DNA from: a phage
Strand: one strand, 5' to 3'
Assembly: GCA_025677605.1 (NCBI GenBank)
Contig: GCA_025677605.1_4110.1
Length of the DNA: 64,000 nucleotides
Shown here piece after piece: positions 54,458 through 64,000 of the stretch. Numbering within the stretch: position 1 is the stretch's first letter; each line of letters opens with the position of its first letter. A model generated the notes under the pieces. It was given only the letters and a program-made list of their open reading frames with translations. It was not told the origin of the DNA and did not search any database. The position numbers were made by a program, and so were the translations under genes.

Positions 54458-54646
54458 TCAAAAACCTTTTTGTGCAACCAGTTCACGATATTGTGCACGT
54501 GTTAGTACACCTTGCTTACGTAGAGACTGAAGCCCACTTAAAGTTTCAGCTTTACGTAGCTCATAAGTGCGTTGTTCTTTGGATTGAATAACTTTCACTT
54601 TTTTAACTTTAACTTCTGGTTCTTTTTTCTTAGGTTGTTTAGCCAT
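54458..54646 (-). CDS. small basic protein, possible nucleic-acid binding (62 aa)
   Basis: K/R-rich N-terminus (MAKQPKKKEPEVKVKKVKV); RBS GAAGGAAG before ATG at 54646. Confidence 0.45.
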   Translation of the reverse strand: MAKQPKKKEPEVKVKKVKVIQSKEQRTYELRKAETLSGLQSLRKQGVLTRAQYRELVAQKGF

Positions 54647-54714
54647 GATTTACTTCCTTCTTCGATAATGGTGTGTTCATTATAGCAATGAACACATTTA
54701 ATGTCAATAATAGA

Positions 54715-56154
54715 TTACATATTTTCTTCTGCAAACTCTGCAAGTGCAGAACGTACAACACCTTCCAATTCAATGATACGACACCCTTCCCAATCTTTGA
54801 ATTTTTCAGTTACATATGTCAAACCACTATTAACTGGACTAATAAACTTACTATCAATCTGTGCTAAGTTACCCATAATGATAACCTTACAGTTTTGACC
54901 TGCACGGGTAAGAATAGTTTTTGCCTGTGCAGGGGTGATGTTCTGGAATTCATCAACAATTAGAATTGTATTAGTAAAAGAACGACCACGAATAAAGTTC
55001 AATGCTTTAAACTGCATTACGTTACGTTTGAGAATCTCTTCAATGCTACCTTGTGGGTTAGCATCATCTTTGTGTAGATACTCTAGAGCATCGATTGCAG
55101 CCCCACAGAATGGGATGACCTTTTCAGCTTCAGAACCGGGTAAGAAACCAATTTCTTCAAATTGTGAATCTTGTGTTTTGGAGAAGATGATACGATCGTA
55201 TTTACGCTTCTCTAGTACTAATTCGAGTGAAGTAGCAACAGTAATCAATGTTTTACCAGTACCTGCTGAACCAAGTAGTACTGTCAAATGTACATCAGGG
55301 TCAAGAATACTGTTAATTGCTAGTGCCTGTTGAATATTCTTTGCTTTAATATCCCAAACTTTAGCACGAAGAGCGATACTTTGACCAATATCCTGGAATA
55401 CCAAAATATCTTCAGGTGTTAGTGAACCGTCTTCTTCTTCGATAGCAGATTGACCTTCGTATACGAATAGTACATCAGCATTATCATATAGATAATCACC
55501 AATACATAGATTATCTGGAAGAACATCTTGAATCAATGCGGTTGGAATATAGTGATATAGACGGCGACCTTCTTGTTGGGATTTAATTTCAGCATTGTTA
55601 ACTTCACTGAATGTTTTCCAGAAATCAATATCAAGGTGGTGCTGCCCAATATGAATCAACTCACTATCTTCGATTGCAACGTCATGACGGTAATCTTGTA
55701 CCTCAACACCGTAGCTCATTGCTTTGATACGCATGTTAATGTCGCGAGTTACCAGTACTGATTGTGATGCCAAAGCCACTAGAATGATTTTGTCATCTGG
55801 TACAGTACTTTTAAGTAGAGTTTCTACTTTATCTTCACTGCCGCCCATACGAATAAGTGCTTCAGCTTCTTCATTCGTCATAACGAATAGCTTACTGGAT
55901 GCATCCATATTTTTGTGGATATTGGCAATATTAACACCAGTACTGCTGATTTCTTCATGAGTAGCATCTTTCAAAATTGCATCGATGTTACGGATTGCGA
56001 AACGTGCATCACGTGATACGTCAACATTACGGCTCTTGATTGAATCAAGTTCTTCAAGAACAGTGAATGGTAGAATCACTGCTGCCCCATCAAATGCTAC
56101 GGTTGCATTTGGATCGGATAGTAGTACGTTTGTGTCAATTGTGTATTTTTTCAT
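54715..56154 (-). CDS. phoH: PhoH-like ATPase with N-terminal PIN domain (PhoH2-type)
   Basis: N-terminal PIN-like segment (YTIDTNVLLSDPNA…), Walker A GSAGTGKT, Walker B ILIVDEFQN; ATG at 56154 with AAGGA RBS (the track start at 56178 is GTG). Confidence 0.8.
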   Translation of the reverse strand: MKKYTIDTNVLLSDPNATVAFDGAAVILPFTVLEELDSIKSRNVDVSRDARFAIRNIDAILKDATHEEISSTGVNIANIHKNMDASSKLFVMTNEEAEALIRMGGSEDKVETLLKSTVPDDKIILVALASQSVLVTRDINMRIKAMSYGVEVQDYRHDVAIEDSELIHIGQHHLDIDFWKTFSEVNNAEIKSQQEGRRLYHYIPTALIQDVLPDNLCIGDYLYDNADVLFVYEGQSAIEEEDGSLTPEDILVFQDIGQSIALRAKVWDIKAKNIQQALAINSILDPDVHLTVLLGSAGTGKTLITVATSLELVLEKRKYDRIIFSKTQDSQFEEIGFLPGSEAEKVIPFCGAAIDALEYLHKDDANPQGSIEEILKRNVMQFKALNFIRGRSFTNTILIVDEFQNITPAQAKTILTRAGQNCKVIIMGNLAQIDSKFISPVNSGLTYVTEKFKDWEGCRIIELEGVVRSALAEFAEENM

Positions 56155-56218
56155 AAAACATCCTTGAGTTATGAGCACATCCTTGTGCTCTACGGTAGAT
56201 TATAGACTCAGACACTTC

Positions 56219-56518
56219 TTATTGTGGCTCATAGTCAACGTAGCAGCGGTGACCGCGAGCCTTTTCTGTCCAGCATTCATTGTAAACAATTTGCCCAACT
56301 GAAACTGGTTTCCTTGATGCTCCATACTTAATAGACCCATCTTCAGTCTTATAAGTAAATGAACATGTATTTTCTTCACACTGCCCTATGTCAGTAACAA
56401 CAGCAGTACGGTAGTATATATCTCTGTGTTTGGTTTGATCTTGATGATAAAAGAACCAAAACCCAATAAGAAATATAATACTTGTGATTATAAAGCTTTG
56501 TATATGATGTTTTGTCAA
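56219..56518 (-). CDS. small membrane protein (99 aa)
   Basis: N-terminal TM helix (FIITSIIFLIGFWFFY), Cys-rich C-terminal part. Confidence 0.4.
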   Translation of the reverse strand: MTKHHIQSFIITSIIFLIGFWFFYHQDQTKHRDIYYRTAVVTDIGQCEENTCSFTYKTEDGSIKYGASRKPVSVGQIVYNECWTEKARGHRCYVDYEPQ

Positions 56519-56847
56519 TTGTCCCCTCTCAAAAATCTAAAACCATTCTGTAAGTACGTGTCAATGTTGACCTTCCCTACAGGATTACTGCTATGGATGA
56601 TATAATCGAATTCAGTACTGATATTGTTTTCGACCATATAATCAATTAGAAATTTTGCAAATGAATACCCTGTCTTTTCATCCTCCCCAACATCACCTAA
56701 GTCATGATCGAAGCTAATAAATTGTGGTAAACCATGTTCATTTACATAAGCACATGCACTTTCATAATCACGACATAAAACCATGTTTTGATTTGGATAA
56801 TACTTTTCAGGATCACGAATATCATCCAGAAACATTGAGTAAGACAT
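56515..56847 (-). CDS. hypothetical protein with FLDDIRDP and FDHDLGD motifs (110 aa)
   Basis: ORF in track; co-transcribed immediately downstream of the NUDIX-like and SIR2 genes. Confidence 0.4.
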   Translation of the reverse strand: MSYSMFLDDIRDPEKYYPNQNMVLCRDYESACAYVNEHGLPQFISFDHDLGDVGEDEKTGYSFAKFLIDYMVENNISTEFDYIIHSSNPVGKVNIDTYLQNGFRFLRGDN

Positions 56848-56858
56848 TATAATTCACC

Positions 56859-57407
56859 TTATAAGTAACTAATCAGTAAATTCTCGGATTGAACAAGATG
56901 TTCTAATTCCATTTTAGCAGTTCCTATGAAGTTTTGTGTCATAAGATTATTATATCCTGCTTCTCGGTTTTGTCCCTTTGAATAACGAGAAATGTGACAT
57001 AAATTAACACCAGCCACTTCTGCACTTGCATGTTTAGCAGTACTGTATCCATCGCGAATCGCTTTCAATTCTTCGTAAGTAACTTCATAACTATAGCTAT
57101 GGGTATGTGCTCCTAGATATAGTTCGTAAGTTTTCAATGGTTTCAATTGTTCGATGAAAATATTATAATTCATCTCTTCCTGAATTTCACGGAATAGTGC
57201 ATCTTCTAAGGTGGCATCGGTATCTTCGACTGTTCCACCACAACCACCCAGTAAACCATCCCAACGAAGCTGGAGTAATACCAGATTCACAACAGGGATA
57301 TCATTTAATTCATAACCTTTATATGGGTTACAATTTCGAGCAAAGAAGTAACAGAATACAAAGTTTGCTCGTTTACCATACTCACCTAGAGGTACTTCTC
57401 GAATCAT
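56859..57407 (-). CDS. NUDIX-like hydrolase (degenerate Nudix box)
   Basis: Segment GGCGGTVEDTDATLEDALFREIQEEM contains the REUxEE core with non-canonical spacing and no trailing Gly; ATG overlaps the SIR2 stop (ATGA). Confidence 0.5.
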   Translation of the reverse strand: MIREVPLGEYGKRANFVFCYFFARNCNPYKGYELNDIPVVNLVLLQLRWDGLLGGCGGTVEDTDATLEDALFREIQEEMNYNIFIEQLKPLKTYELYLGAHTHSYSYEVTYEELKAIRDGYSTAKHASAEVAGVNLCHISRYSKGQNREAGYNNLMTQNFIGTAKMELEHLVQSENLLISYL

Positions 57408-58156
57408 TTCATTCTATCCTTAATGATAGTTTCCAGTACTGGAATCGCTTTTGTAGCTGGTTTTATAATTTTTTCATTGAACATGAAATCGTTATCATTT
57501 TTTCTGATGTTGATATTAATACTAAAGCATGGCAAACAAGCAACCAGATGTGACCATTTCAGTACTGTGTCACTGCTACCAATGACTACAACTGTATCAT
57601 CTTCTGTTAAGGATTGCAATACTAAATTACGCTCATCGTATATTGGGAGTTTTTCACCATCAACATAACGATAATATTCACCAATGAACACTACGTTTGG
57701 TTTCGCAAAGACACCTTCTTTCGGAATGTACGGTTCATAACCACAATCCACAATACTATAATCGTCACCACCAATTGTAAAATTCTCAATAACTTCTTTT
57801 AAATTACCATGTAACTTTAATTCATTGCCACCAATACGAGTATAGAGATCATCCATATTCGAAGTCATATGTAAAAAGTTATCACCGTATGTATCTTCTA
57901 GAGATTTGATATAATAATGCATATCATTAGGAACACAATCTTTCATTTTAACACGTAATGTGTTATAGAAAGTATGCACTAAATGGTACTTAGTACTAAG
58001 ACGTGCAATGTTACATACATCATTTATTTGAAATTGATCCCATAGGCCATCGTCCATGCGAAACGGTTCCATCCCACTTTCAACGGATAGACCTGCACCG
58101 GAAATAACCAATACACGTTTATTACCTTTATTTTTTATAAAAGAGTCAGAAATCAT
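57404..58156 (-). CDS. SIR2-family (sirtuin-like) NAD-dependent protein
   Basis: Sirtuin catalytic motifs in order: GAGLSVESGMEPFR, TSNMDDL (NID-like), LHG (catalytic His), GSSDTV; no zinc-ribbon cysteines seen; 250 aa. Confidence 0.7.
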   Translation of the reverse strand: MISDSFIKNKGNKRVLVISGAGLSVESGMEPFRMDDGLWDQFQINDVCNIARLSTKYHLVHTFYNTLRVKMKDCVPNDMHYYIKSLEDTYGDNFLHMTSNMDDLYTRIGGNELKLHGNLKEVIENFTIGGDDYSIVDCGYEPYIPKEGVFAKPNVVFIGEYYRYVDGEKLPIYDERNLVLQSLTEDDTVVVIGSSDTVLKWSHLVACLPCFSININIRKNDNDFMFNEKIIKPATKAIPVLETIIKDRMK

Positions 58157-58365
58157 AGCTTACCTACTGTACCTAATGAACTCAAATCGTATACAAATAA
58201 GATACACACAACCGAGATGACAATGTGATATATCATCCATCCATTGAATTTCTCTTTGTTTTTGATAATTTTATATATACATTTAATATTATTGTACGCT
58301 ACAACTGCTAGAAATACAACAACAAAATAAACAAAGCATAGTGAAAAGTAATTGATAGTTATCAT
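58153..58365 (-). CDS. small membrane protein (70 aa)
   Basis: Two predicted TM helices; ATGA overlap with the SIR2 start. Confidence 0.4.
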   Translation of the reverse strand: MITINYFSLCFVYFVVVFLAVVAYNNIKCIYKIIKNKEKFNGWMIYHIVISVVCILFVYDLSSLGTVGKL

Positions 58366-58425
58366 AGTTATAATACTCTCCTTATTAAATTAATATAGGG
58401 GATTATAAGAATCCCCTTTTTTGTA

Positions 58426-59028
58426 TTACAGCTTAGGATAGCTTAGTAAATCATACTCAGCACTAACGCTGGTAACATTATCACTTACAATTTTGAAGAT
58501 AGAATCGGTGCGATCAACCATCTTAACACCTGTTTCTTTTTGAACTTCAATATATGCTTGCATAGCTGCAATTGCATGATATGTACCACTACCAACAGAT
58601 GTAATTTGTGTCTTAGGTTGGAGTACTGAAAAATCCTCTTGAACTTCATAAATTGTATGATTATGAAGAATAATAAACTGTCCACCACCAACGTCTTGAG
58701 TTGTATCACGAGCACCCCATTCTTCTTTAAATAGTGTGCGAATACGTGGGATTACCTCAAGTACTAAGTACTGTGAGAATGTTTGGTTTGATTGCTGTTC
58801 AGGTAAATCAAGTTTATACGTCAGCAATTGTCCCATGCGGAAGCTCGACGTGTATCCCATTGCCATAACTTCTTTGGTGCGATTCAATCCACTTTCATCG
58901 ATTTTGATGAATTCTTTTTCAAACACTTTTGGTTCAGTTTGAATTGCTTTAGTGAAACCATTACTACCCAGTTTGTCACCCGCGATAAAAGATGTGTTAC
59001 CATCAGTGTAAGCAATAATACAAGTCAT
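58426..59028 (-). CDS. Ntn-hydrolase, proteasome beta/HslV-like peptidase
   Basis: Thr at position 2 (MTCIIAYTDGNTSFIAGDK) and later SVGSGTYHAIAAMQA follow the HslV/proteasome-beta pattern; GGAG RBS. Confidence 0.5.
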   Translation of the reverse strand: MTCIIAYTDGNTSFIAGDKLGSNGFTKAIQTEPKVFEKEFIKIDESGLNRTKEVMAMGYTSSFRMGQLLTYKLDLPEQQSNQTFSQYLVLEVIPRIRTLFKEEWGARDTTQDVGGGQFIILHNHTIYEVQEDFSVLQPKTQITSVGSGTYHAIAAMQAYIEVQKETGVKMVDRTDSIFKIVSDNVTSVSAEYDLLSYPKL

Positions 59029-59039
59029 TGATATCTCCG

Positions 59040-59336
59040 TTATAAAAGATGCATTACATCTAAGATTGTGTACATGAAATACAATAGTAAACCCAAAATT
59101 ATGAGTAAAATTGTATACGAAATTTTAAAGAAATAATAAAAGTACTTTTCAGTTTTAGAAGAAAACTCACCATTTTCTTCAAGAAAACCACTCTTGAAAT
59201 CACTTGCCATAATCACTGATAAAAGAACAATGATTCCATATGTAACTATAGTAGCATAGAAGATGAACTCTGTCCAGCCTTGAAGATGTGATAATTCTGT
59301 CATTTTTTGTTTCCTTGGTTGATAATGTACAACCAT
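59040..59336 (-). CDS. small membrane protein (98 aa)
   Basis: Two to three predicted TM helices. Confidence 0.4.
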   Translation of the reverse strand: MVVHYQPRKQKMTELSHLQGWTEFIFYATIVTYGIIVLLSVIMASDFKSGFLEENGEFSSKTEKYFYYFFKISYTILLIILGLLLYFMYTILDVMHLL

Positions 59337-59430
59337 TATATCTTAAAATCGGGTGGCAGTACACCACCCTTAACCAAAATCATGAATTAGTATTAGGATT
59401 ATATCATTGCTTCATAAAAAATACAACTTT

Positions 59431-60036
59431 TTATTGAATGATTCCCCATTTAACGAGATCTGATCTTCGTAATACAACGATATCCTCACCATGTTTAGTA
59501 CTGATATCAATGAGTGTTTCAGCGGGGATACCGTTATGTGCGTACAGTGTAAAAAGATACCCAACTTTAGTTGAGACTTGATGTGTAAACTCCATCAACT
59601 GTCTAACTGAAACGAATGTCGTATCTGGATCTGCACCATTCGTAGATACTAGTGAGATGTTATGTAAACCCATCACTGCGGTATCACTCATATCCCTACG
59701 TTCAGATGATGCAGAGAAAAAAACCAGACTACAAGACGAATTACATTGCTTTGGGACATAAACAGTTAACTTTTTAGCAGCCACAAAAAATCCCAAATCT
59801 AATCCTGCATCAAAATCTCCACCAGGTGATGTTATTGTTATAATTTTAAATCTTGTTTCTTTCCACAACTTCTTCACTTCTTGTACAGTTTCATCATTTA
59901 GTTCACCATCAATTGACACAACATGTTCATTTAATAGAAAAACAGATGATTTTTTTGAAACTTCTGCCGCTGCCGGAAAGTTTAATGCAGCGATTAAAAC
60001 AACGGTTTGTACAATCTCTTTCAAGATTCGTTTCAT
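59431..60036 (-). CDS. exported ClpP/S49-like serine peptidase
   Basis: Signal peptide (…LIAALNFPAAA-EV) then ClpP-like ITITSPGGDFDAGLDLGFF block; GAGG RBS before ATG at 60036. Confidence 0.5.
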   Translation of the reverse strand: MKRILKEIVQTVVLIAALNFPAAAEVSKKSSVFLLNEHVVSIDGELNDETVQEVKKLWKETRFKIITITSPGGDFDAGLDLGFFVAAKKLTVYVPKQCNSSCSLVFFSASSERRDMSDTAVMGLHNISLVSTNGADPDTTFVSVRQLMEFTHQVSTKVGYLFTLYAHNGIPAETLIDISTKHGEDIVVLRRSDLVKWGIIQ

Positions 60037-60164
60037 TGATTACCTCGGATTTGAGTTAAGGAACATAAATAATAGTACAATAATTGATCAATTATGTCAA
60101 GTGCAAAACTGAACAATTATGACTGTAGTATCAAGTGTTTTTGTTAAGTTCATTGATTTACCAA

Positions 60165-60234: not shown

Positions 60235-60750
60235 ATGAAACCAATAGCTGGCTTAGATCAATTTCCATTTGTTATAGGTGGATTGCAGGTTACTGCTGCA
60301 AAGATAGAAGGGCAAGTATTTGTTAAAGAATTGTATGTTATAAAACAAAGAACATTCGATTCATATGATTTAATATCTGAAAATTTCAAGATTTACAAAG
60401 ATATAAAAATCACAGGTAGAAATAAAGATAAATCAACATTGTTGTATGATGATGACGATGCTGAAATTGCTAAATCTTTAGCAAATAATACATTTTGCAT
60501 AAAAGAAGCTGATGCTATTAATAATAAGTATGGTTTTGGTATTCAATATCAAAGTAATAAAATAAAATTACATAATGGTGAAATAATTTTCAGAAGAACG
60601 AACGTGGAGCCAAATTCGTTGTCTAAAGTTATAATAAAGCCAGATGATTTTGTTCTTTATTCAAATGATAAAATGCAATTCACTGCTTACTTCTCTCCGA
60701 AAGATTGGCCTGACCAAACCAGATTTCCACCGTATGCTCGTTTCCAATAA
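60235..60750 (+). CDS. hypothetical protein, paralogue 1 of the plus-strand island (171 aa)
   Basis: RBS AAGGAG 6 nt before ATG; N-terminal approximately 130 aa paralogous to 60855-63023 and 63081-63455; followed by a terminator. Confidence 0.55.
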   Translation: MKPIAGLDQFPFVIGGLQVTAAKIEGQVFVKELYVIKQRTFDSYDLISENFKIYKDIKITGRNKDKSTLLYDDDDAEIAKSLANNTFCIKEADAINNKYGFGIQYQSNKIKLHNGEIIFRRTNVEPNSLSKVIIKPDDFVLYSNDKMQFTAYFSPKDWPDQTRFPPYARFQ

Positions 60751-60854: not shown

Positions 60855-63023
60855 ATGAAAGCAATATCTAGTGAAGGTAAATTGCCTTTTGGTATTGGTG
60901 GTATTAAAGTTTCTGTCGCTAAAATCGATGGTAAGGTGTTAACCGAAACTTTATATATTAACCGTCAACGTTCCGGTAACGTGTATGATCTCATCAATGA
61001 TAATGGTGATATCTATTACAAAGTTTCCATGCGTTGGTATGATACTCGTGGTATCGACATTCCAAATTCTGTTGAACCAGCAGACGCAATTAATATGGTT
61101 CAAGACAATTCATTCATGATCTATGTTGATGATGGTATTAGCATGGGATATACTATGCTTTATATGGGTCGTGTTATTAAATTAAATAATGGTCGCATCG
61201 TAAAACGCGATTATGTTAATGCTGATATCCCCGTAACTGGTGTTGTAATTACACCCAAAGATGCATCTCTTAAAGTTGGTGCAACAAAACAACTATCAGC
61301 CCAAGTAGTTCCATCTAATGCAAAAGACAAGGCAGTAACCTACTCTTCATCTGCTCCTACAATCGTTGAAGTTGATGCTCAAACAGGTCTAGCAACTGCA
61401 CTTGCAAATGGCAATGCTGATGTAACCGTAACAACTCACGATGGTGATTTCACAGATGTGTGTTCTATCGTTGTCAGTACTGGTGTTACAGGTGTTACTG
61501 TTTCTCCTAAAACTGCAACGGTGAATGTTGGAGAAACTCAACAATTGTTAGCTGAAGTTTCTCCTGCATCTGCAACTGATAAGAAAGTTACATGGGCTTC
61601 ATCTGCTCCATCCGTTGCAACAGTTGATAAAGATTCTGGGTTGGTAACAGGTGTATCCAATGGTGATGTTACTATTACTGCAACAACTGAAGATGGTTCA
61701 TTGACTGATACTTCTTCTATTAAAGTTCAAACAGCAGTAACTGGTGTTACGTTAACACCTGAAACATATACATTCACTACTATTGGTGCAAATGAACCAT
61801 TAACAGCAACGGTACTACCAAGAACTGCATCAAATCAGGAAGTTCGTTATGAATCTTCTGCACCTACAGTAGCAGAAGTTGATGATGACGGTTTAGTAAC
61901 TTCTGTTAATAATGGTACTGCCACTATTACCGTAACAACTATTGATGGTGAAAAAACCGCACAATCAATTATTGATGTGACGATCCCAGTAACTGGTATT
62001 AACCTAACACCTGCAACCGCTTCATTAACTTCTGTTGGTGCAACACAGCAATTAACTGCAACTGTTCTACCAGCTAATGCTCGTAACAAAGCAGTAACAT
62101 ACGCAACTTCTGCTGCTGGTGTTGCAACCGTTAGTACAAGTGGTTTAATCACTGCGGTAGCGAATGGCACTGCTAATATCACGGCTACTACTGCTGATGG
62201 TGGCTTTAGTAAAGTTTGTGCAGTAACTGTAGCAATTCCAGTTCCAGTAACAACTATTAATGTTACTCCAGCAACTAAAACATTGACTGCTGTTAACGCA
62301 ACTCAAGCAATGGCTGCTGAAGTTCTTCCAGCTAACGCAACTAATAAAGCTGTAACATGGTCTTCTAGTGCACCTGCTGTAGCGAAAGTTGATGCTAGTA
62401 CTGGTGTTGTAACTGCGTTAACTAACGGTACTGCAAACATTATCGCAACTGCCGCTGATGGAAGTGGTAAAACAGGTCAAGGTGTCATTACTGTGTCAAT
62501 CCCAGTTCCTGTAGCTAGTGTTTCTGTTTCTCCAACAACAGCAACATTAACATCTGTTGGTGCAACTCAACAACTAACACCAACTGTACTACCAGCTAAT
62601 GCTACTAACAAAGCAGTAACTTATAGTACTTCTGCTGCTGGGGTCGCAACTGTTAGTGCAAGTGGTTTAATCACTGCTGTTGCAAACGGTACTGCTGATA
62701 TCACTGTAAAAACTACTGATGGTGCAAAAACTGCAAAATGTGCTGTAACTGTTAATATTCCAGTACCAGTATCCAGCGTTGGTTTAACACCTAAAGCCAC
62801 TGATCTTTCACTATCAGGTACTAAAACAGTTCAACTAGTTCCAGAAGTTCTTCCAGCTAACGCAACTAACAAATCAGTAACTTATAGTGCAGATGAACCT
62901 ACTAAAGTATCTATTAGTGATGATGGATTAGTAACTGCTCTAGAAGAAGGTACTGTAGTCATTACAGTGACTACTGTGAATGGCAATAAAACTGATACTG
63001 CAACTGTAACAATCAGTGCTTAA
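60855..63023 (+). CDS. Ig-like (Big_2) repeat protein with paralogue N-terminal domain (722 aa)
   Basis: N-terminal approximately 130 aa paralogous to neighbours; then about seven tandem approximately 80-aa repeats with the Big_2-type pattern (VTGVTVSP…VTWSSSAP.VATVD..GLVT.V.NG.A.ITATT.DG); RBS AAGGAAA. Confidence 0.7.
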   Translation: MKAISSEGKLPFGIGGIKVSVAKIDGKVLTETLYINRQRSGNVYDLINDNGDIYYKVSMRWYDTRGIDIPNSVEPADAINMVQDNSFMIYVDDGISMGYTMLYMGRVIKLNNGRIVKRDYVNADIPVTGVVITPKDASLKVGATKQLSAQVVPSNAKDKAVTYSSSAPTIVEVDAQTGLATALANGNADVTVTTHDGDFTDVCSIVVSTGVTGVTVSPKTATVNVGETQQLLAEVSPASATDKKVTWASSAPSVATVDKDSGLVTGVSNGDVTITATTEDGSLTDTSSIKVQTAVTGVTLTPETYTFTTIGANEPLTATVLPRTASNQEVRYESSAPTVAEVDDDGLVTSVNNGTATITVTTIDGEKTAQSIIDVTIPVTGINLTPATASLTSVGATQQLTATVLPANARNKAVTYATSAAGVATVSTSGLITAVANGTANITATTADGGFSKVCAVTVAIPVPVTTINVTPATKTLTAVNATQAMAAEVLPANATNKAVTWSSSAPAVAKVDASTGVVTALTNGTANIIATAADGSGKTGQGVITVSIPVPVASVSVSPTTATLTSVGATQQLTPTVLPANATNKAVTYSTSAAGVATVSASGLITAVANGTADITVKTTDGAKTAKCAVTVNIPVPVSSVGLTPKATDLSLSGTKTVQLVPEVLPANATNKSVTYSADEPTKVSISDDGLVTALEEGTVVITVTTVNGNKTDTATVTISA
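61230..62990 (+). repeat. tandem coding repeats (approximately 240-bp period) encoding the Big_2 Ig-like domains
   Basis: Reiterated Ig-like domain units within CDS 60855-63023; copies are diverged, not identical. Confidence 0.6.
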
Positions 63024-63037
63024 TTTTTAATAATATA

Positions 63038-63059
63038 GTGCATGAAAATTATCATGCAC
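63038..63059 (+). promoter_or_regulatory. inverted repeat (GTGCATGA-N6-TCATGCAC) between paralogues 2 and 3
   Basis: Perfect 8-bp inverted repeat in the 57-bp intergenic spacer; possible operator or RNA hairpin. Confidence 0.3.
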
Positions 63060-63080
63060 TTTACTTGGAGAAGTATAATA

Positions 63081-63455
63081 ATGGGTAAACCAATTGCATT
63101 AACCGGAAGACTTCCTTTTTCTATTAATGGTATCGAAATTACTGGTGCTAAAATTAATGGAGCAGCTATTCTTGGTAAACTATATATTTTAAAACAACGT
63201 TCAGCACATACTTATGATCTAATCGATGAAAGCGGTAAGGTTTATGAATATGTTCAGATGGTGTATAGAAATAAAGATTCATATATCATGAATTTCGAAG
63301 ATTCAGATGAAAGCCTTGTAGAAAGCCTAAGAGATAATACTTTCTTCATTAAATTGAAAGATGAAGAAGCAGGTATTGAAGGGTTTTGCACTATGTACAT
63401 GATTCACAAAATTAAATTACATAATGGACAATACATCCTACGTAAAAAAGCATAA
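63081..63455 (+). CDS. hypothetical protein, paralogue 3 of the plus-strand island (about 124 aa)
   Basis: ATG at 63081 with GGAGAAG RBS; paralogous to the N-terminal domains of 60235-60750 and 60855-63023. Confidence 0.5.
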   Translation: MGKPIALTGRLPFSINGIEITGAKINGAAILGKLYILKQRSAHTYDLIDESGKVYEYVQMVYRNKDSYIMNFEDSDESLVESLRDNTFFIKLKDEEAGIEGFCTMYMIHKIKLHNGQYILRKKA

Positions 63456-63743: not shown

Positions 63744-64000
63744 TTATTGAGTCCATTATCATAGATACAATTTACAATAATCCCAGCATCTTCCAGTACT
63801 TTAATAGCTTCTGGTGGAGTGCGAGGATACGATTTTTCGTAAATTACACGAGAAATACCACTACCAGCGATTAACTTAGAACAAGTATAGCACGGTTGGA
63901 GTGTGGTGTAAAGTGTTGCACCCTGACGTTCTTGTGGTGAACTATATAGTAATGCATTCATTTCCGCATGGATCTCATGAATGTTGCTCCACTCGTGATG
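63740..64000 (-). CDS. dCMP deaminase, 3' part only (N-terminus beyond the window end)
   Basis: C-terminal zinc motif LYTTLQPCYTCSKLIAGSGISRVIY; frame stays open to the window edge and reads …IHAEMNA… (the HAE motif) just upstream. Confidence 0.75.
   Translation of the reverse strand, partial: HHEWSNIHEIHAEMNALLYSSPQERQGATLYTTLQPCYTCSKLIAGSGISRVIYEKSYPRTPPEAIKVLEDAGIIVNCIYDNGLNK

What the first reader, a model, noticed from the sequence alone, without database searches (positions are those of the whole stretch)
58426..60036. Phage-encoded proteasome/HslV-like Ntn hydrolase next to an exported ClpP-like peptidase
CDS 58426-59028 has Thr at position 2 and HslV-like blocks (TCIIAYTDGNTSFIAGD, SVGSGTYHAIAAMQA), the hallmark of a self-activating N-terminal-nucleophile peptidase. 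Two genes upstream, CDS 59431-60036 has a cleavable signal peptide and a ClpP-like SPGG block. Neither sits in a head-morphogenesis context, so they are unlikely to be the prohead protease. Their co-transcription with the SIR2/NUDIX-like genes, PIN-PhoH and small membrane proteins suggests a host-modulation operon.
Basis: partly seen in the sequence, partly recalled or inferred. Interest (0 to 1): 0.6.

Follow-up and report, generated by a model that had tools for sequence, protein, structure and literature searches.

The report
Orphan HslV-like and exported ClpP-like phage peptidases
A giant E. coli phage carries a proteasome/HslV-type threonine peptidase without its usual ATPase partner and, two genes away, a secreted ClpP-fold serine peptidase; both are real, but public records of sister phages already annotate them this way and nobody has tested what they do.

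Summary
The window is an Asteriusvirus jumbo phage, 98.6% identical to Escherichia phage A4.

**CDS 58426-59028(-).** This is a 200-aa proteasome-beta/HslV-fold protein.
- The AF2 model has pLDDT 91. The best Foldseek matches are HslV, then BPH.
- The family profile matches HslV in the PDB at E 2.6e-9.
- Thr1, Asp17, Lys33 and G-x-G are kept in 68-69 of 69 viral relatives.
- It is not an HslV ortholog. Phage A4 encodes no HslU.

**CDS 59431-60036(-).** This protein has a conserved signal peptide ending in an AxA site and a ClpP-like core.
- A wider family profile matches ClpP at E 8.4e-6, and Ser100 and His125 align with ClpP's catalytic Ser and His.
- No Asp equivalent is conserved. The family signature is SxGG…CxSxC…H.
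- The same profile retrieves proteins that UniRef names COG3904 family or periplasmic protein-like.

**Context.**
- Neither gene is the prohead protease. That gene lies beside the portal, scaffold and capsid genes in A4, and neither homolog is in the phAPEC6 virion proteome.
- The adjacency of the two genes is specific to this lineage. In EJP2, NAD-salvage genes separate them, and RaK2-like phages show no HslV-like gene next to the ClpP-like one. A functional pair or shared operon is therefore not supported.

Phage 121Q already carries the notes "protease (ClpYQ-like)" and "protease (ClpP-like)", so novelty is low. Function is unknown.

The parts
58426..59028 (-). HslV/proteasome-beta-fold Ntn hydrolase, 200 aa. 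Homolog of A4_469 'protease' and 121Q gp475 'protease (ClpYQ-like)'.
   Evidence: ORF. PHROG 1040 at E 3.6e-21. AF2 pLDDT 91.3. Foldseek matches to HslV and BPH. Family profile against HslV in the PDB, E 2.6e-9.
59023..59025 (-). Codon for Thr2. This becomes Thr1 after removal of the initiator Met and is the predicted nucleophile.
   Evidence: Thr in 27/27 and 69/69 relatives. Aligns with Thr1 of HslV.
58975..58977 (-). Codon for Asp18 (mature Asp17).
   Evidence: Invariant; 68/69. Same numbering as Asp17 of HslV and the proteasome.
58927..58929 (-). Codon for Lys34 (mature Lys33).
   Evidence: Invariant; 68/69. Aligned with Lys33 of HslV in the ungapped hmmsearch alignment.
58585..58593 (-). 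Codons for Gly146-Ser147-Gly148, equivalent to the G-S-G turn of HslV and the proteasome.
   Evidence: G146 and G148 are each kept in 68/69. Position 147 is Ser or Cys. Aligned with GSG of HslV.
59040..59336 (-). Small membrane protein with two predicted transmembrane segments, lying between the two peptidase genes. It is 98 aa from the first ATG. A4 annotates 87 aa, starting at window 59303.
   Evidence: Hydropathy windows at residues 21-52 and 65-98. A4_468 and 121Q gp474 are annotated 'hypothetical protein'. No family match.
59431..60036 (-). Exported ClpP-fold, COG3904-like serine peptidase, 201 aa. Homolog of A4_467 'ClpP/crotonase-like domain protein' and 121Q gp473 'protease (ClpP-like)'.
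   Evidence: PHROG 26024 at E 5.6e-61. The A4-alignment profile matches ClpP 4jcq at E 8.4e-6. The same profile retrieves proteins that UniRef names 'COG3904 family protein'. The top 50 Foldseek hits are all ClpP or 1510-N, but the model is poor.
59965..60036 (-). Predicted Sec signal peptide, residues 1-24 (MKRILKEIVQTVVLIAALNFPAAA). The likely signal peptidase I site is between Ala24 and Glu25.
   Evidence: Hydropathy and the AxA motif. The layout is conserved in Asteriusvirus, RaK2, XaC1, Hallingskeid and metagenomic relatives. 120 of 150 family representatives have an N-terminal hydrophobic stretch. No dedicated predictor was run.
59731..59745 (-). Codons for Cys98-Asn99-Ser100-Ser101-Cys102. 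Ser100 is the putative nucleophile, bracketed by two invariant cysteines.
   Evidence: C98, S100 and C102 are invariant in alignments A2, A3 and A4. Ser100 aligns with the catalytic Ser of ClpP. CxSxC occurs in 145 of 150 representatives.
59662..59664 (-). Codon for His125, the putative general base.
   Evidence: Invariant. Aligned with the catalytic His of ClpP. The Ser-to-His spacing is 25 residues.
60072..60100 (-). Sigma-70-like promoter candidate (TTGACA-17-TACTAT), about 35 nt upstream of the ClpP-like start codon.
   Evidence: Consensus scan, 10 of 12 matches. The total number of such sites in the region is not above the shuffled expectation, so this is suggestive only.
58397..58417 (.). 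GC-rich hairpin between the stop codon of the HslV-like gene and the next gene. It is a possible transcription-unit boundary.
   Evidence: Terminator-like scan. The T-run on the minus strand is weak.

Best explanation
These are two independent accessory peptidase genes of an Asteriusvirus jumbo phage. They lie at the head of a leftward non-structural gene block.

**(1) The 200-aa protein.** It is a cytoplasmic Thr-type N-terminal-nucleophile peptidase of the HslV/BPH branch of the proteasome family.
- Host methionine aminopeptidase removes Met1 and exposes Thr1.
- Thr1, Asp17 and Lys33 form the catalytic set, and the G-S-G turn and the Gly58 region complete the active site.
- The phage encodes no HslU. 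The protein therefore either works as a stand-alone self-compartmentalising peptidase, as BPH and Anbu may do, or borrows the host's HslU.

**(2) The 201-aa protein.** It is made with a Sec signal peptide, cleaved after Ala24, and acts in the periplasm or at the outer face of the inner membrane.
- It is a ClpP-fold serine peptidase using Ser100 and His125.
- The SxGG turn would form the oxyanion hole.
- The invariant Cys98 and Cys102 probably form a disulfide around the nucleophile.

**Shown versus inferred.** Shown: the fold and homology of (1); the profile-level homology of (2); conservation of the catalytic residues; absence of HslU; absence from the head module and from a relative's virion. 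Inferred: Met removal, oligomeric state, export, the disulfide, actual peptidase activity, early expression and the substrates.
For: **HslV-like protein.**
- AF2 pLDDT 91.3.
- Foldseek against the PDB: HslV at E 3.8e-9, BPH with TM 0.68-0.71, then proteasome beta and Anbu.
- 31 viral structures with the same fold at E<=1e-3.
- Family profile against HslV, E 2.6e-9; hhalign probability 97%.
- T2, D18, K34, G146 and G148 are essentially invariant in 27 and in 69 relatives.
- No HslU in the A4 genome. The only tblastn hit is a Walker-A match, E 0.001, to the ClpA-like gene.
- Only 4 Escherichia phage records match HslU, against 58 that carry the HslV-like gene.

**ClpP-like protein.**
- S70, G72, G73, C98, S100, C102 and H125 are invariant down to 21% identity.
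- Ser and His align with ClpP's catalytic residues at E 8.4e-6.
- The signature is present in 137 of 150 representatives, and 120 of 150 have an N-terminal hydrophobic stretch.
- UniRef names for related proteins are 'COG3904 family protein' and 'Periplasmic protein-like protein'.
- The signal-peptide layout is conserved.

**Not the prohead protease.**

**Possible early expression.** A sigma-70-like promoter candidate lies upstream.
Against: - No biochemical data exist for either family in the literature that was searchable.
- The window's HslV-like protein does not reach the Pfam Proteasome or NCBIfam HslV thresholds.
- The ClpP-like structure model is poor: pLDDT 48, with the C-terminal half unmodelled. 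Its Foldseek E-values are weak, 7e-3 or worse.
- No third catalytic residue is conserved.
- Export rests on heuristics only.
- Promoter-like sites are not enriched over shuffled sequence.
Confidence: 0.6

Rival explanations
1. The phage HslV-like protein is an HslU-dependent protease core. It assembles into hexameric rings that dock on the host's HslU, forming a hybrid ATP-dependent protease that retargets or competes with host HslUV.
For: - HslV is the closest solved relative by both sequence and fold.
- The T1, D17, K33 numbering is identical to HslV.
- The phage has no HslU of its own, whereas E. coli does.
- A Salmonella jumbo-phage paper also notes HslV without HslU.
Against: - Identity to HslV is only about 15-19%.
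- The NCBIfam HslV score is 20 bits against a cut-off of 137.
- HslV Lys28 aligns with a variable position, Ile in the window protein, in the alignment. The role of Lys28 in binding the HslU tail is from my own recollection and was not checked.
- BPH gives equal or better TM-scores.
- Structurally similar proteins occur in Gordonia phages. My own knowledge, not checked here, is that their hosts lack HslU.
Confidence: 0.2
2. The HslV-like protein is not a protease. It is instead a different Thr1-dependent enzyme, for example a connectase-like transpeptidase or ligase, or an amidase.
For: - Weak Pfam hits of the N-terminal 19 residues to the connectase MJ0548_N family, in 7 of 27 members.
- Family-specific invariant residues that HslV lacks: Cys3 and the TxSFRxxQ motif.
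- Fuchs et al. stress that proteasome homologs have diverse activities.
Against: - The connectase match is confined to the N-terminal strand and falls below threshold.
- Full-length fold and profile matches favour HslV and BPH.
Confidence: 0.08
3. The ClpP-like protein stays anchored in the inner membrane by an uncleaved N-terminal helix. It then works like SppA or NfeD, clearing signal peptides or cleaving a membrane partner such as the neighbouring two-segment membrane protein.
For: - Weak hits to NfeD1b_N in 12 of 13 members and to 1510-N NfeD structures.
- A small membrane-protein gene lies directly downstream.
Against: - The Pro-x-AxA motif is typical of signal peptidase I sites and is conserved.
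- No conserved Lys is available for a Ser-Lys dyad.
- The membrane-protein neighbour is missing in RaK2, XaC1, Hallingskeid and EJP2.
Confidence: 0.15
4. One or both proteins take part in head maturation as prohead proteases. Some public records annotate the ClpP-like gene this way.
For: - Some records label the ClpP-like homolog 'head maturation protease'.
- There is a weak NCBIfam match to Clp_rel_HeadMat, E 0.011.
- In 14 of 80 metagenomic phage loci, the HslV-like gene lies near portal and capsid genes.
Against: - A4 has a dedicated capsid maturation protease within the portal-scaffold-capsid module.
- The phAPEC6 virion proteome contains gp227c but not the homologs gp345c and gp346c.
- A secreted protein cannot act inside cytoplasmic proheads.
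Confidence: 0.03

Closest known systems
HslV (ClpQ), the peptidase core of bacterial HslUV (MEROPS T1B)
   Same: - Same fold, and closest by profile and by structure.
- No propeptide; the protein begins M-T.
- Thr1, Asp17, Lys33 and the G-S-G turn are at equivalent positions.
- Similar size.

   Different: - Only about 15-19% identity, far below the NCBIfam equivalog cut-off.
- No hslU partner gene in the phage.
- A roughly 20-residue beta-hairpin insertion at residues 37-57 in Asteriusvirus.
- Family-specific invariant Cys2 and a TxSFRxxQ motif.
Group I proteasome homologs of Fuchs, Alva and Lupas 2021 (BPH, PPH, AAH, CPH), several of which are found in phages (PMC8665760)
   Same: - A compact proteasome-like subunit without a propeptide, encoded by tailed phages.
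- BPH gives the highest TM-scores, 0.68-0.71.
   Different: - It is not PPH as described, which is about 140 residues and lacks helix H2. This family is 176-200 aa and has H1-H4.
ClpP (MEROPS S14)
   Same: - The SPGG turn.
- Ser and His at the catalytic positions, 25 residues apart.
- Profile and partial fold similarity.

   Different: - It has a signal peptide.
- No Asp is conserved.
- CxSxC replaces the AASMG motif.
- The handle region is not recognisable.
- It falls below the Pfam gathering score.
- The phage has a separate canonical ClpP, A4_455, with GYAASMG, HQ and DRD motifs. That protein is only 23% identical to this one.
COG3904 'predicted periplasmic protein' family (uncharacterised)
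   Same: - It shares the SxGG…CxSxC…H signature and the N-terminal hydrophobic leader.
- It is retrieved at E 1e-9 to 1e-14 with the family profile.

   Different: - The bacterial members are longer, about 240-260 aa.
- In Rhodobacterales they follow an overlapping 418-454-aa ORF that is absent from the phage.
- No function is known for any member.
NfeD (1510-N) and SppA, membrane-associated ClpP-fold peptidases
   Same: - ClpP-fold peptidases that act outside the cytoplasm.
- Weak profile and fold hits.
   Different: - Those enzymes use a Ser-Lys dyad, and no conserved Lys is present here.
- All scores are below family thresholds.

Membership tests
Proteasome-beta/HslV superfamily (Ntn hydrolase, MEROPS T1) | An alpha-beta-beta-alpha sandwich fold. 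| tested here: met
   AF2 pLDDT 91.3. Foldseek probability 1.0 for HslV, BPH, proteasome beta and Anbu, with TM up to 0.71.
Proteasome-beta/HslV superfamily (Ntn hydrolase, MEROPS T1) | An N-terminal Thr nucleophile, with Asp17, Lys33 and the G-S-G turn. | tested here: met
   T2, D18, K34, G146 and G148 are invariant or kept in 68-69 of 69 relatives. They align with the HslV residues. The geometry in the model was not measured.
Proteasome-beta/HslV superfamily (Ntn hydrolase, MEROPS T1) | Peptidase activity and assembly into rings. | not testable with these tools
   No multimer prediction or biochemistry was available.
HslV proper (ortholog of bacterial ClpQ) | A score above the curated equivalog cut-off. 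| tested here: not met
   NCBIfam NF003964 scores 20 bits against a cut-off of 137. TIGR03692 scores 18.8 against 157.75.
HslV proper (ortholog of bacterial ClpQ) | A cognate hslU ATPase gene. | tested here: not met
   tblastn of E. coli HslU against the whole A4 genome gives only a Walker-A hit, E 0.001, to the ClpA-like gene. Only 4 Escherichia phage records match HslU.
[quoted passage not shown] 2021) | About 140 residues, with helix H2 missing. | tested here: not met
   The protein is 200 aa and relatives are 176-199 aa. The model has H1 at 63-72 and H2 at 84-103. The definition comes from PMC8665760.
AAH and CPH (Fuchs et al. 2021) | Sequence clustering with the published representatives. 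| not tested
   The representative accessions are listed in the paper, but their sequences were not obtainable here. The held supplement had no matches.
ClpP (Pfam PF00574, MEROPS S14) | A score above the Pfam gathering threshold. | tested here: not met
   14.6 bits against 20.2 for the window protein. 12 of 13 close relatives give weak hits, the best at E 6.1e-5.
ClpP (Pfam PF00574, MEROPS S14) | A Ser-His-Asp catalytic triad. | tested here: not met
   Ser100 and His125 are invariant and aligned with the ClpP residues. The position equivalent to ClpP's Asp is variable: GED, GSR, GQG, GKN.
ClpP/crotonase fold | The fold of the whole domain. | tested here: inconclusive
   The model has pLDDT 48, and only residues 31-95 or so are confident. 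The top 50 Foldseek hits are all ClpP or 1510-N, but E is 7e-3 or worse and 62-88 residues align at about 3 Å.
COG3904-like exported ClpP-fold family | The SxGG…CxSxC…H signature with an N-terminal leader. | tested here: met
   Invariant in alignments A3 and A4. 137 of 150 representatives carry the full signature and 120 of 150 have a hydrophobic N-terminus. UniRef names include 'COG3904 family protein'.
SppA/NfeD (Ser-Lys dyad peptidases) | A conserved catalytic Lys. | tested here: not met
   No Lys is invariant in alignment A4. NfeD1b_N hits are below threshold.
Phage prohead (capsid maturation) protease | A gene within the portal-scaffold-capsid module, with the protein associated with proheads or virions. 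| tested here: not met
   A4_8 'capsid maturation protease' lies between the portal and scaffold genes, about 117 kb away. The phAPEC6 virion proteome has gp227c but not gp345c or gp346c.

The most novel reading that the evidence does not exclude
The exported protein would be the phage branch of the large, uncharacterised COG3904 family. It would be a periplasmic ClpP-fold peptidase with a Ser-His dyad whose nucleophile is clamped by a Cys98-Cys102 disulfide. Made early in infection, it would cut host envelope proteins, for example to block superinfection or to time lysis. Separately, the orphan HslV-like core would dock on the host's HslU and redirect host ATP-dependent proteolysis.
Probability: 0.15. 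Interest if true: 0.6.

Novelty: already known. Interest (0 to 1): 0.3.

Why it matters
Phage-encoded proteasome-like and ClpP-like peptidases outside the head module are widespread. The HslV-like family occurs in 198 phage records and the ClpP-like family in 48. The ClpP-like profile finds 1,728 representatives of 50%-identity clusters at E<=1e-3. None of these has been tested functionally.

If they are active, they are candidate tools for remodelling the host proteome or cell envelope during infection. The present result mainly confirms existing annotation and adds three points:
- the HslV-like gene is an orphan with an intact catalytic set;
- the ClpP-like gene belongs to an exported family with an SxGG…CxSxC…H signature that also includes proteins UniRef names COG3904;
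- the two genes are not a conserved pair.

Tried and rejected
1. **PhoH as an ATPase partner of the HslV-like peptidase.** The idea came from several contexts. PhoH is directly adjacent in Pseudoalteromonas phage J2-1 and in metagenomic locus L016. It lies within about 3 kb in L015, in Aeromonas phage 2L372X and in Asteriusvirus. I rejected it as a general rule because only 5 of 80 IMG/VR loci have PhoH within 10 kb.
2. **Any universal neighbour of the HslV-like gene.** Clustering all ORFs in the 80 loci gave no neighbour family present in more than 14 loci.
4. **Single-sequence phmmer against the PDB.** It found nothing for either protein. Profiles were needed.
5. **Known defence or anti-defence models.** PADLOC gave no hit for either peptidase.
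6. **Placing the HslV-like protein in the published PPH, AAH or CPH groups.** The held supplement contained no usable sequences.
7. **Literature on function.** No paper was found that characterises either family.
8. **hhalign register near Lys33.** hhalign inserted a 3-residue gap and shifted Lys33. I preferred the ungapped hmmsearch alignment, because the Thr1-Asp17-Lys33 spacing is identical in both proteins.
Full report
**What the window is.** The 5-kb stretch around the finding is 98.6% identical over its full length to Escherichia phage A4 (ON286972, genus Asteriusvirus, 355.5 kb). It is more distantly related to 121Q, PBECO4, phAPEC6 and other jumbo coliphages. In A4 the two genes are annotated A4_469 'protease' and A4_467 'ClpP/crotonase-like domain protein'. 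In 121Q the notes read gp475 'protease (ClpYQ-like)' and gp473 'protease (ClpP-like)'.

**Observation check.** Both ORFs are present on the minus strand at the stated coordinates, with the quoted peptide blocks. Both have Shine-Dalgarno-like sequences upstream. Between them lies a small protein with two predicted transmembrane segments (59040-59303 or 59336). After the HslV-like gene come another small membrane protein with two such segments (58153-58365), then SIR2, a Nudt16-like NUDIX protein, a cREC receiver domain, a membrane protein and PIN-PhoH.

**The HslV-like protein (58426-59028, minus strand).**
- PHROG 1040 'peptidase HslV family' matches at E 3.6e-21.
- The single sequence matches nothing in the PDB. 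A 27-sequence profile matches HslV at E 2.6e-9 over the whole length, then the actinobacterial proteasome beta subunit and BPH.
- hhalign against E. coli HslV gives probability 97% and E 7.8e-11.
- AlphaFold2 gives a confident model: pLDDT 91.3, pTM 0.87.
- The best solved-structure matches are HslV (E 3.8e-9) and BPH (TM 0.68-0.71), followed by proteasome beta subunits and Anbu.
- In the viral structure library, 31 proteins share the fold at E<=1e-3.
- After removal of Met1 the residue numbering matches HslV exactly: Thr1, Asp17, Lys33.
- These residues and the G-x-G of the G-S-G turn are invariant in 27 diverse homologs. They are kept in 68-69 of 69 distinct IMG/VR homologs. Residues 58-67 were part of the search pattern used to collect those loci, so their conservation there is by construction. 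The catalytic residues were not part of that pattern.
- Family-specific features are an invariant Cys right after Thr1, a TxSFRxxQ motif, and a roughly 20-residue insertion in Asteriusvirus.

**What the HslV-like protein is not.**
- It is not an HslV ortholog. NCBIfam scores are 19-20 bits against cut-offs of 137-158.
- The phage has no HslU. I downloaded the whole A4 genome and searched it with E. coli HslU. The only hit was a Walker-A match, E 0.001, to a ClpA-like gene.
- Across the phage collection, only 4 Escherichia records match HslU, against 58 that carry the HslV-like gene.
- A paper on a Salmonella jumbo phage makes the same remark: HslV without HslU.

**Distribution and prior knowledge of the HslV-like family.**
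- The family occurs in 198 phage records. These include Asteriusvirus, T5-like Epseptimavirus, Aeromonas, Vibrio, Pseudoalteromonas and Xanthomonas phages, Geobacillus virus E3 and a Moorella phage.
- 355 IMG/VR stretches also encode it.
- Fuchs, Alva and Lupas (2021, PMC8665760) already described proteasome homologs encoded by phages: PPH, AAH and CPH, all in their 'group I' with HslV and BPH.
- The present family is 176-200 aa and has helices H1-H4, so it is not PPH as they define it, which is about 140 aa and lacks H2. I could not test assignment to AAH or CPH.

**The ClpP-like protein (59431-60036, minus strand).**
- PHROG 26024 'protease' matches at E 5.6e-61. Pfam CLP_protease reaches only E 0.031, below threshold, with an equally weak NfeD1b_N hit.
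- Close homologs are confined to RaK2-like jumbo phages: 48 records covering Asteriusvirus, Alcyoneusvirus, Erwinia phage Hallingskeid and Xanthomonas phage XaC1.
- The structure prediction failed because the alignment was shallow (pLDDT 48). Even so, the top 50 Foldseek hits were all ClpP or the NfeD protease 1510-N, aligned over the confident N-terminal half at weak E-values.
- An exhaustive profile search found 1,728 cluster representatives at E<=1e-3.
- In a 23-sequence alignment reaching down to 21% identity, the invariant residues are S70, G72, G73, C98, S100, C102, H125 and G169. A more remote set of 40 shows the same pattern.
- The 23-sequence profile matches Listeria ClpP (4jcq) at E 8.4e-6. 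It places CnSAC on the vaSAg catalytic-Ser motif and lHN on the iHQ catalytic-His motif. The Ser-to-His spacing is 25 residues.
- No acidic residue is conserved where ClpP has its Asp, and no Lys is conserved as in SppA or NfeD. A Ser-His dyad is the most that can be claimed.
- Of the 150 best representatives, 137 carry SxGG…CxSxC…H with the right spacing, and 120 have a hydrophobic N-terminus.
- UniRef names several of the bacterial relatives 'COG3904 family protein', 'Periplasmic protein-like protein' or 'Clp protease'.
- The leader consists of a basic N-terminal region, about 13 hydrophobic residues, Pro at -4, and then AxA. It is conserved across genera. This supports Sec export and cleavage by signal peptidase I, but no dedicated predictor was available.
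- The mature protein has only two cysteines. Both are invariant and flank the nucleophile. In an exported protein this suggests a disulfide, which is inference.
- The phage's canonical cytoplasmic ClpP (A4_455, just beyond the window's end) has the classical GYAASMG, HQ and DRD motifs. It is only 23% identical to the exported protein.

**Not the prohead protease.**
- A4 has a 'capsid maturation protease' (A4_8) between the portal, scaffold and major capsid genes, about 117 kb away.
- In phAPEC6 the equivalent gene is gp227c. It is in the 62-protein virion proteome, whereas gp345c (HslV-like) and gp346c (ClpP-like) are not.
- Labels such as 'head maturation protease' on the ClpP-like gene in some records are therefore probably wrong.

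**Are the two genes a unit?** No.
- In EJP2, also an Asteriusvirus, about 5 kb containing NMNAT and NAMPT genes separates them.
- In RaK2, XaC1 and Hallingskeid the ClpP-like gene is followed by the NMNAT and NAMPT genes, with no HslV-like gene in the 4 kb inspected on either side.
- In T5-like phages the HslV-like gene lies between thymidylate synthase and RNase H. In Geobacillus virus E3 it lies after thyA and DHFR.
- Across 80 IMG/VR loci, no neighbour family recurs in more than 14 loci.
- An apparent link to PhoH does not generalise. PhoH is adjacent in J2-1, L016 and L042 and nearby in others. Only 5 of the 80 loci have PhoH within 10 kb.
- Within the window, a sigma-70-like promoter candidate (TTGACA-17-TACTAT, 60100-60072) precedes the ClpP-like gene. 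A hairpin (58397-58417) follows the HslV-like gene.
- These features are consistent with a short early transcription unit of ClpP-like gene, membrane-protein gene and HslV-like gene, separate from the SIR2 block. Promoter-like sites are not enriched over shuffled sequence, however, so this remains a suggestion.

**Mechanism, with confidence.** The most likely reading (about 0.6) is two independent accessory peptidases.
- One is a cytoplasmic Thr1 peptidase of the HslV/BPH type. Met removal activates it. It acts alone or with host HslU; the host-HslU variant is rated about 0.2 among the rivals.
- The other is a secreted Ser-His ClpP-fold peptidase of the COG3904-like family, acting in the cell envelope.
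- Substrates and biological role are unknown. Strong conservation of the catalytic residues across hundreds of divergent sequences argues for real catalysis rather than a decoy role.

**Novelty and interest.** The identities of both genes are already in public annotation and, for phage proteasome homologs, in the literature. This analysis adds five points:
- the intact catalytic set across the whole HslV-like family;
- the demonstrated absence of HslU in the phage;
- the link of the ClpP-like gene to an exported family with the SxGG…CxSxC…H signature and no Asp, which includes proteins UniRef names COG3904;
- literature-backed exclusion of a head-maturation role;
- the finding that the adjacency of the two genes is specific to this lineage.

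Interest is modest, at 0.3.

Noticed in passing
window 56515-58156 (-): A SIR2 protein (PF02146, E 1.9e-19), a Nudt16-like NUDIX protein (PF22327, E 5.5e-19) and a cREC 'cyclic-phosphate processing receiver' domain (PF20274, E 1.8e-22) lie in a row. In related jumbo phages (EJP2, RaK2, XaC1, Hallingskeid), NMNAT-like and NAMPT genes lie in the same neighbourhood. This suggests an NAD+/ADP-ribose module. In this window and in A4, the NMNAT and NAMPT genes are missing from this position.
   Followed up: partly
window 54715-56178 (-): A PIN-PhoH fusion (PhoH2-type; PF13638 plus PF02562). Its phAPEC6 homolog, gp341c, was detected in the virion proteome with 30.9% coverage, which is unexpected for a presumed RNA-processing ATPase.
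   Followed up: partly
window 60235-60750, 60855-63023, 63042-63455 (+): Three paralogous plus-strand genes share an N-terminal domain (…LPF.IGG…AKI.G…LY…QR…YDLI…). The middle gene carries many Ig-like repeats. The phAPEC6 homolog gp347 is an abundant virion protein. In A4 the first ORF is annotated as two short CDS, whereas in the window it is a continuous 171-aa ORF.
   Followed up: no
Phage A4 outside the window: L104 22760-25045 (A4_579), L106 7874-8419 (A4_74), A4 record 88155-88850 (A4_455, about 2.4 kb beyond window position 64000): The phage appears to carry its own Clp system. It has a canonical ClpP with Ser, His and Asp motifs. It has a 761-aa ClpA-like double-AAA+ protein with an SLGL loop where, from my recollection of E. 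coli ClpA, the IGL ClpP-docking loop lies. It also has a gene annotated 'protease adapter protein'. Together with the capsid protease and the two genes studied here, that makes at least four peptidase genes.
   Followed up: partly
L019 4185-6167; L016 329-2053; L042 9322-10543; L018 2110-5552: In some phages PhoH lies directly upstream of the HslV-like gene. In J2-1 (388 aa) and L016 (309 aa) the HslV-like domain carries a C-terminal extension. Aeromonas phage 2L372X has two HslV-family genes in tandem. The PhoH link is not general: only 5 of 80 loci show it.
   Followed up: yes
IMG/VR loci such as L074 10001-15339, L052, L054, L056, L084, L091, L094: In 14 of 80 viral contigs, the HslV-like gene lies next to proteins I judged by eye to be an HK97-type portal and major capsid protein. 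These clusters were not scanned against any family library. In those smaller phages the proteasome-like protein might have a morphogenetic role.
   Followed up: no
IMG/VR loci L037, L038, L049, L050, L055, L058, L064, L067, L071, L075, L080: In a clade found mostly on large phage contigs (up to 480 kb), the HslV-like gene is flanked by a recurring set of neighbours. I assigned these by eye; they were not scanned against any family library. They look like a RelA/SpoT-type HD hydrolase upstream and an NAD-dependent DNA ligase downstream. Nearby are proteins that look like PARP, Thg1, PTH2 and a Phe-tRNA-synthetase-like protein.
   Followed up: no
L011 3636-5729; L013 3748-5732: In Paracoccus and Poseidonocella the COG3904 gene is preceded by an abutting or overlapping ORF of 418-454 aa with no Pfam match. 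This may be a conserved two-gene unit of unknown function.
   Followed up: no
window 54679-54707 (-): A perfect sigma-70 consensus promoter (TTGACA-17-TATAAT, with an upstream TG) lies just downstream of the PIN-PhoH stop codon and ahead of the small gene at 54458-54646.
   Followed up: no
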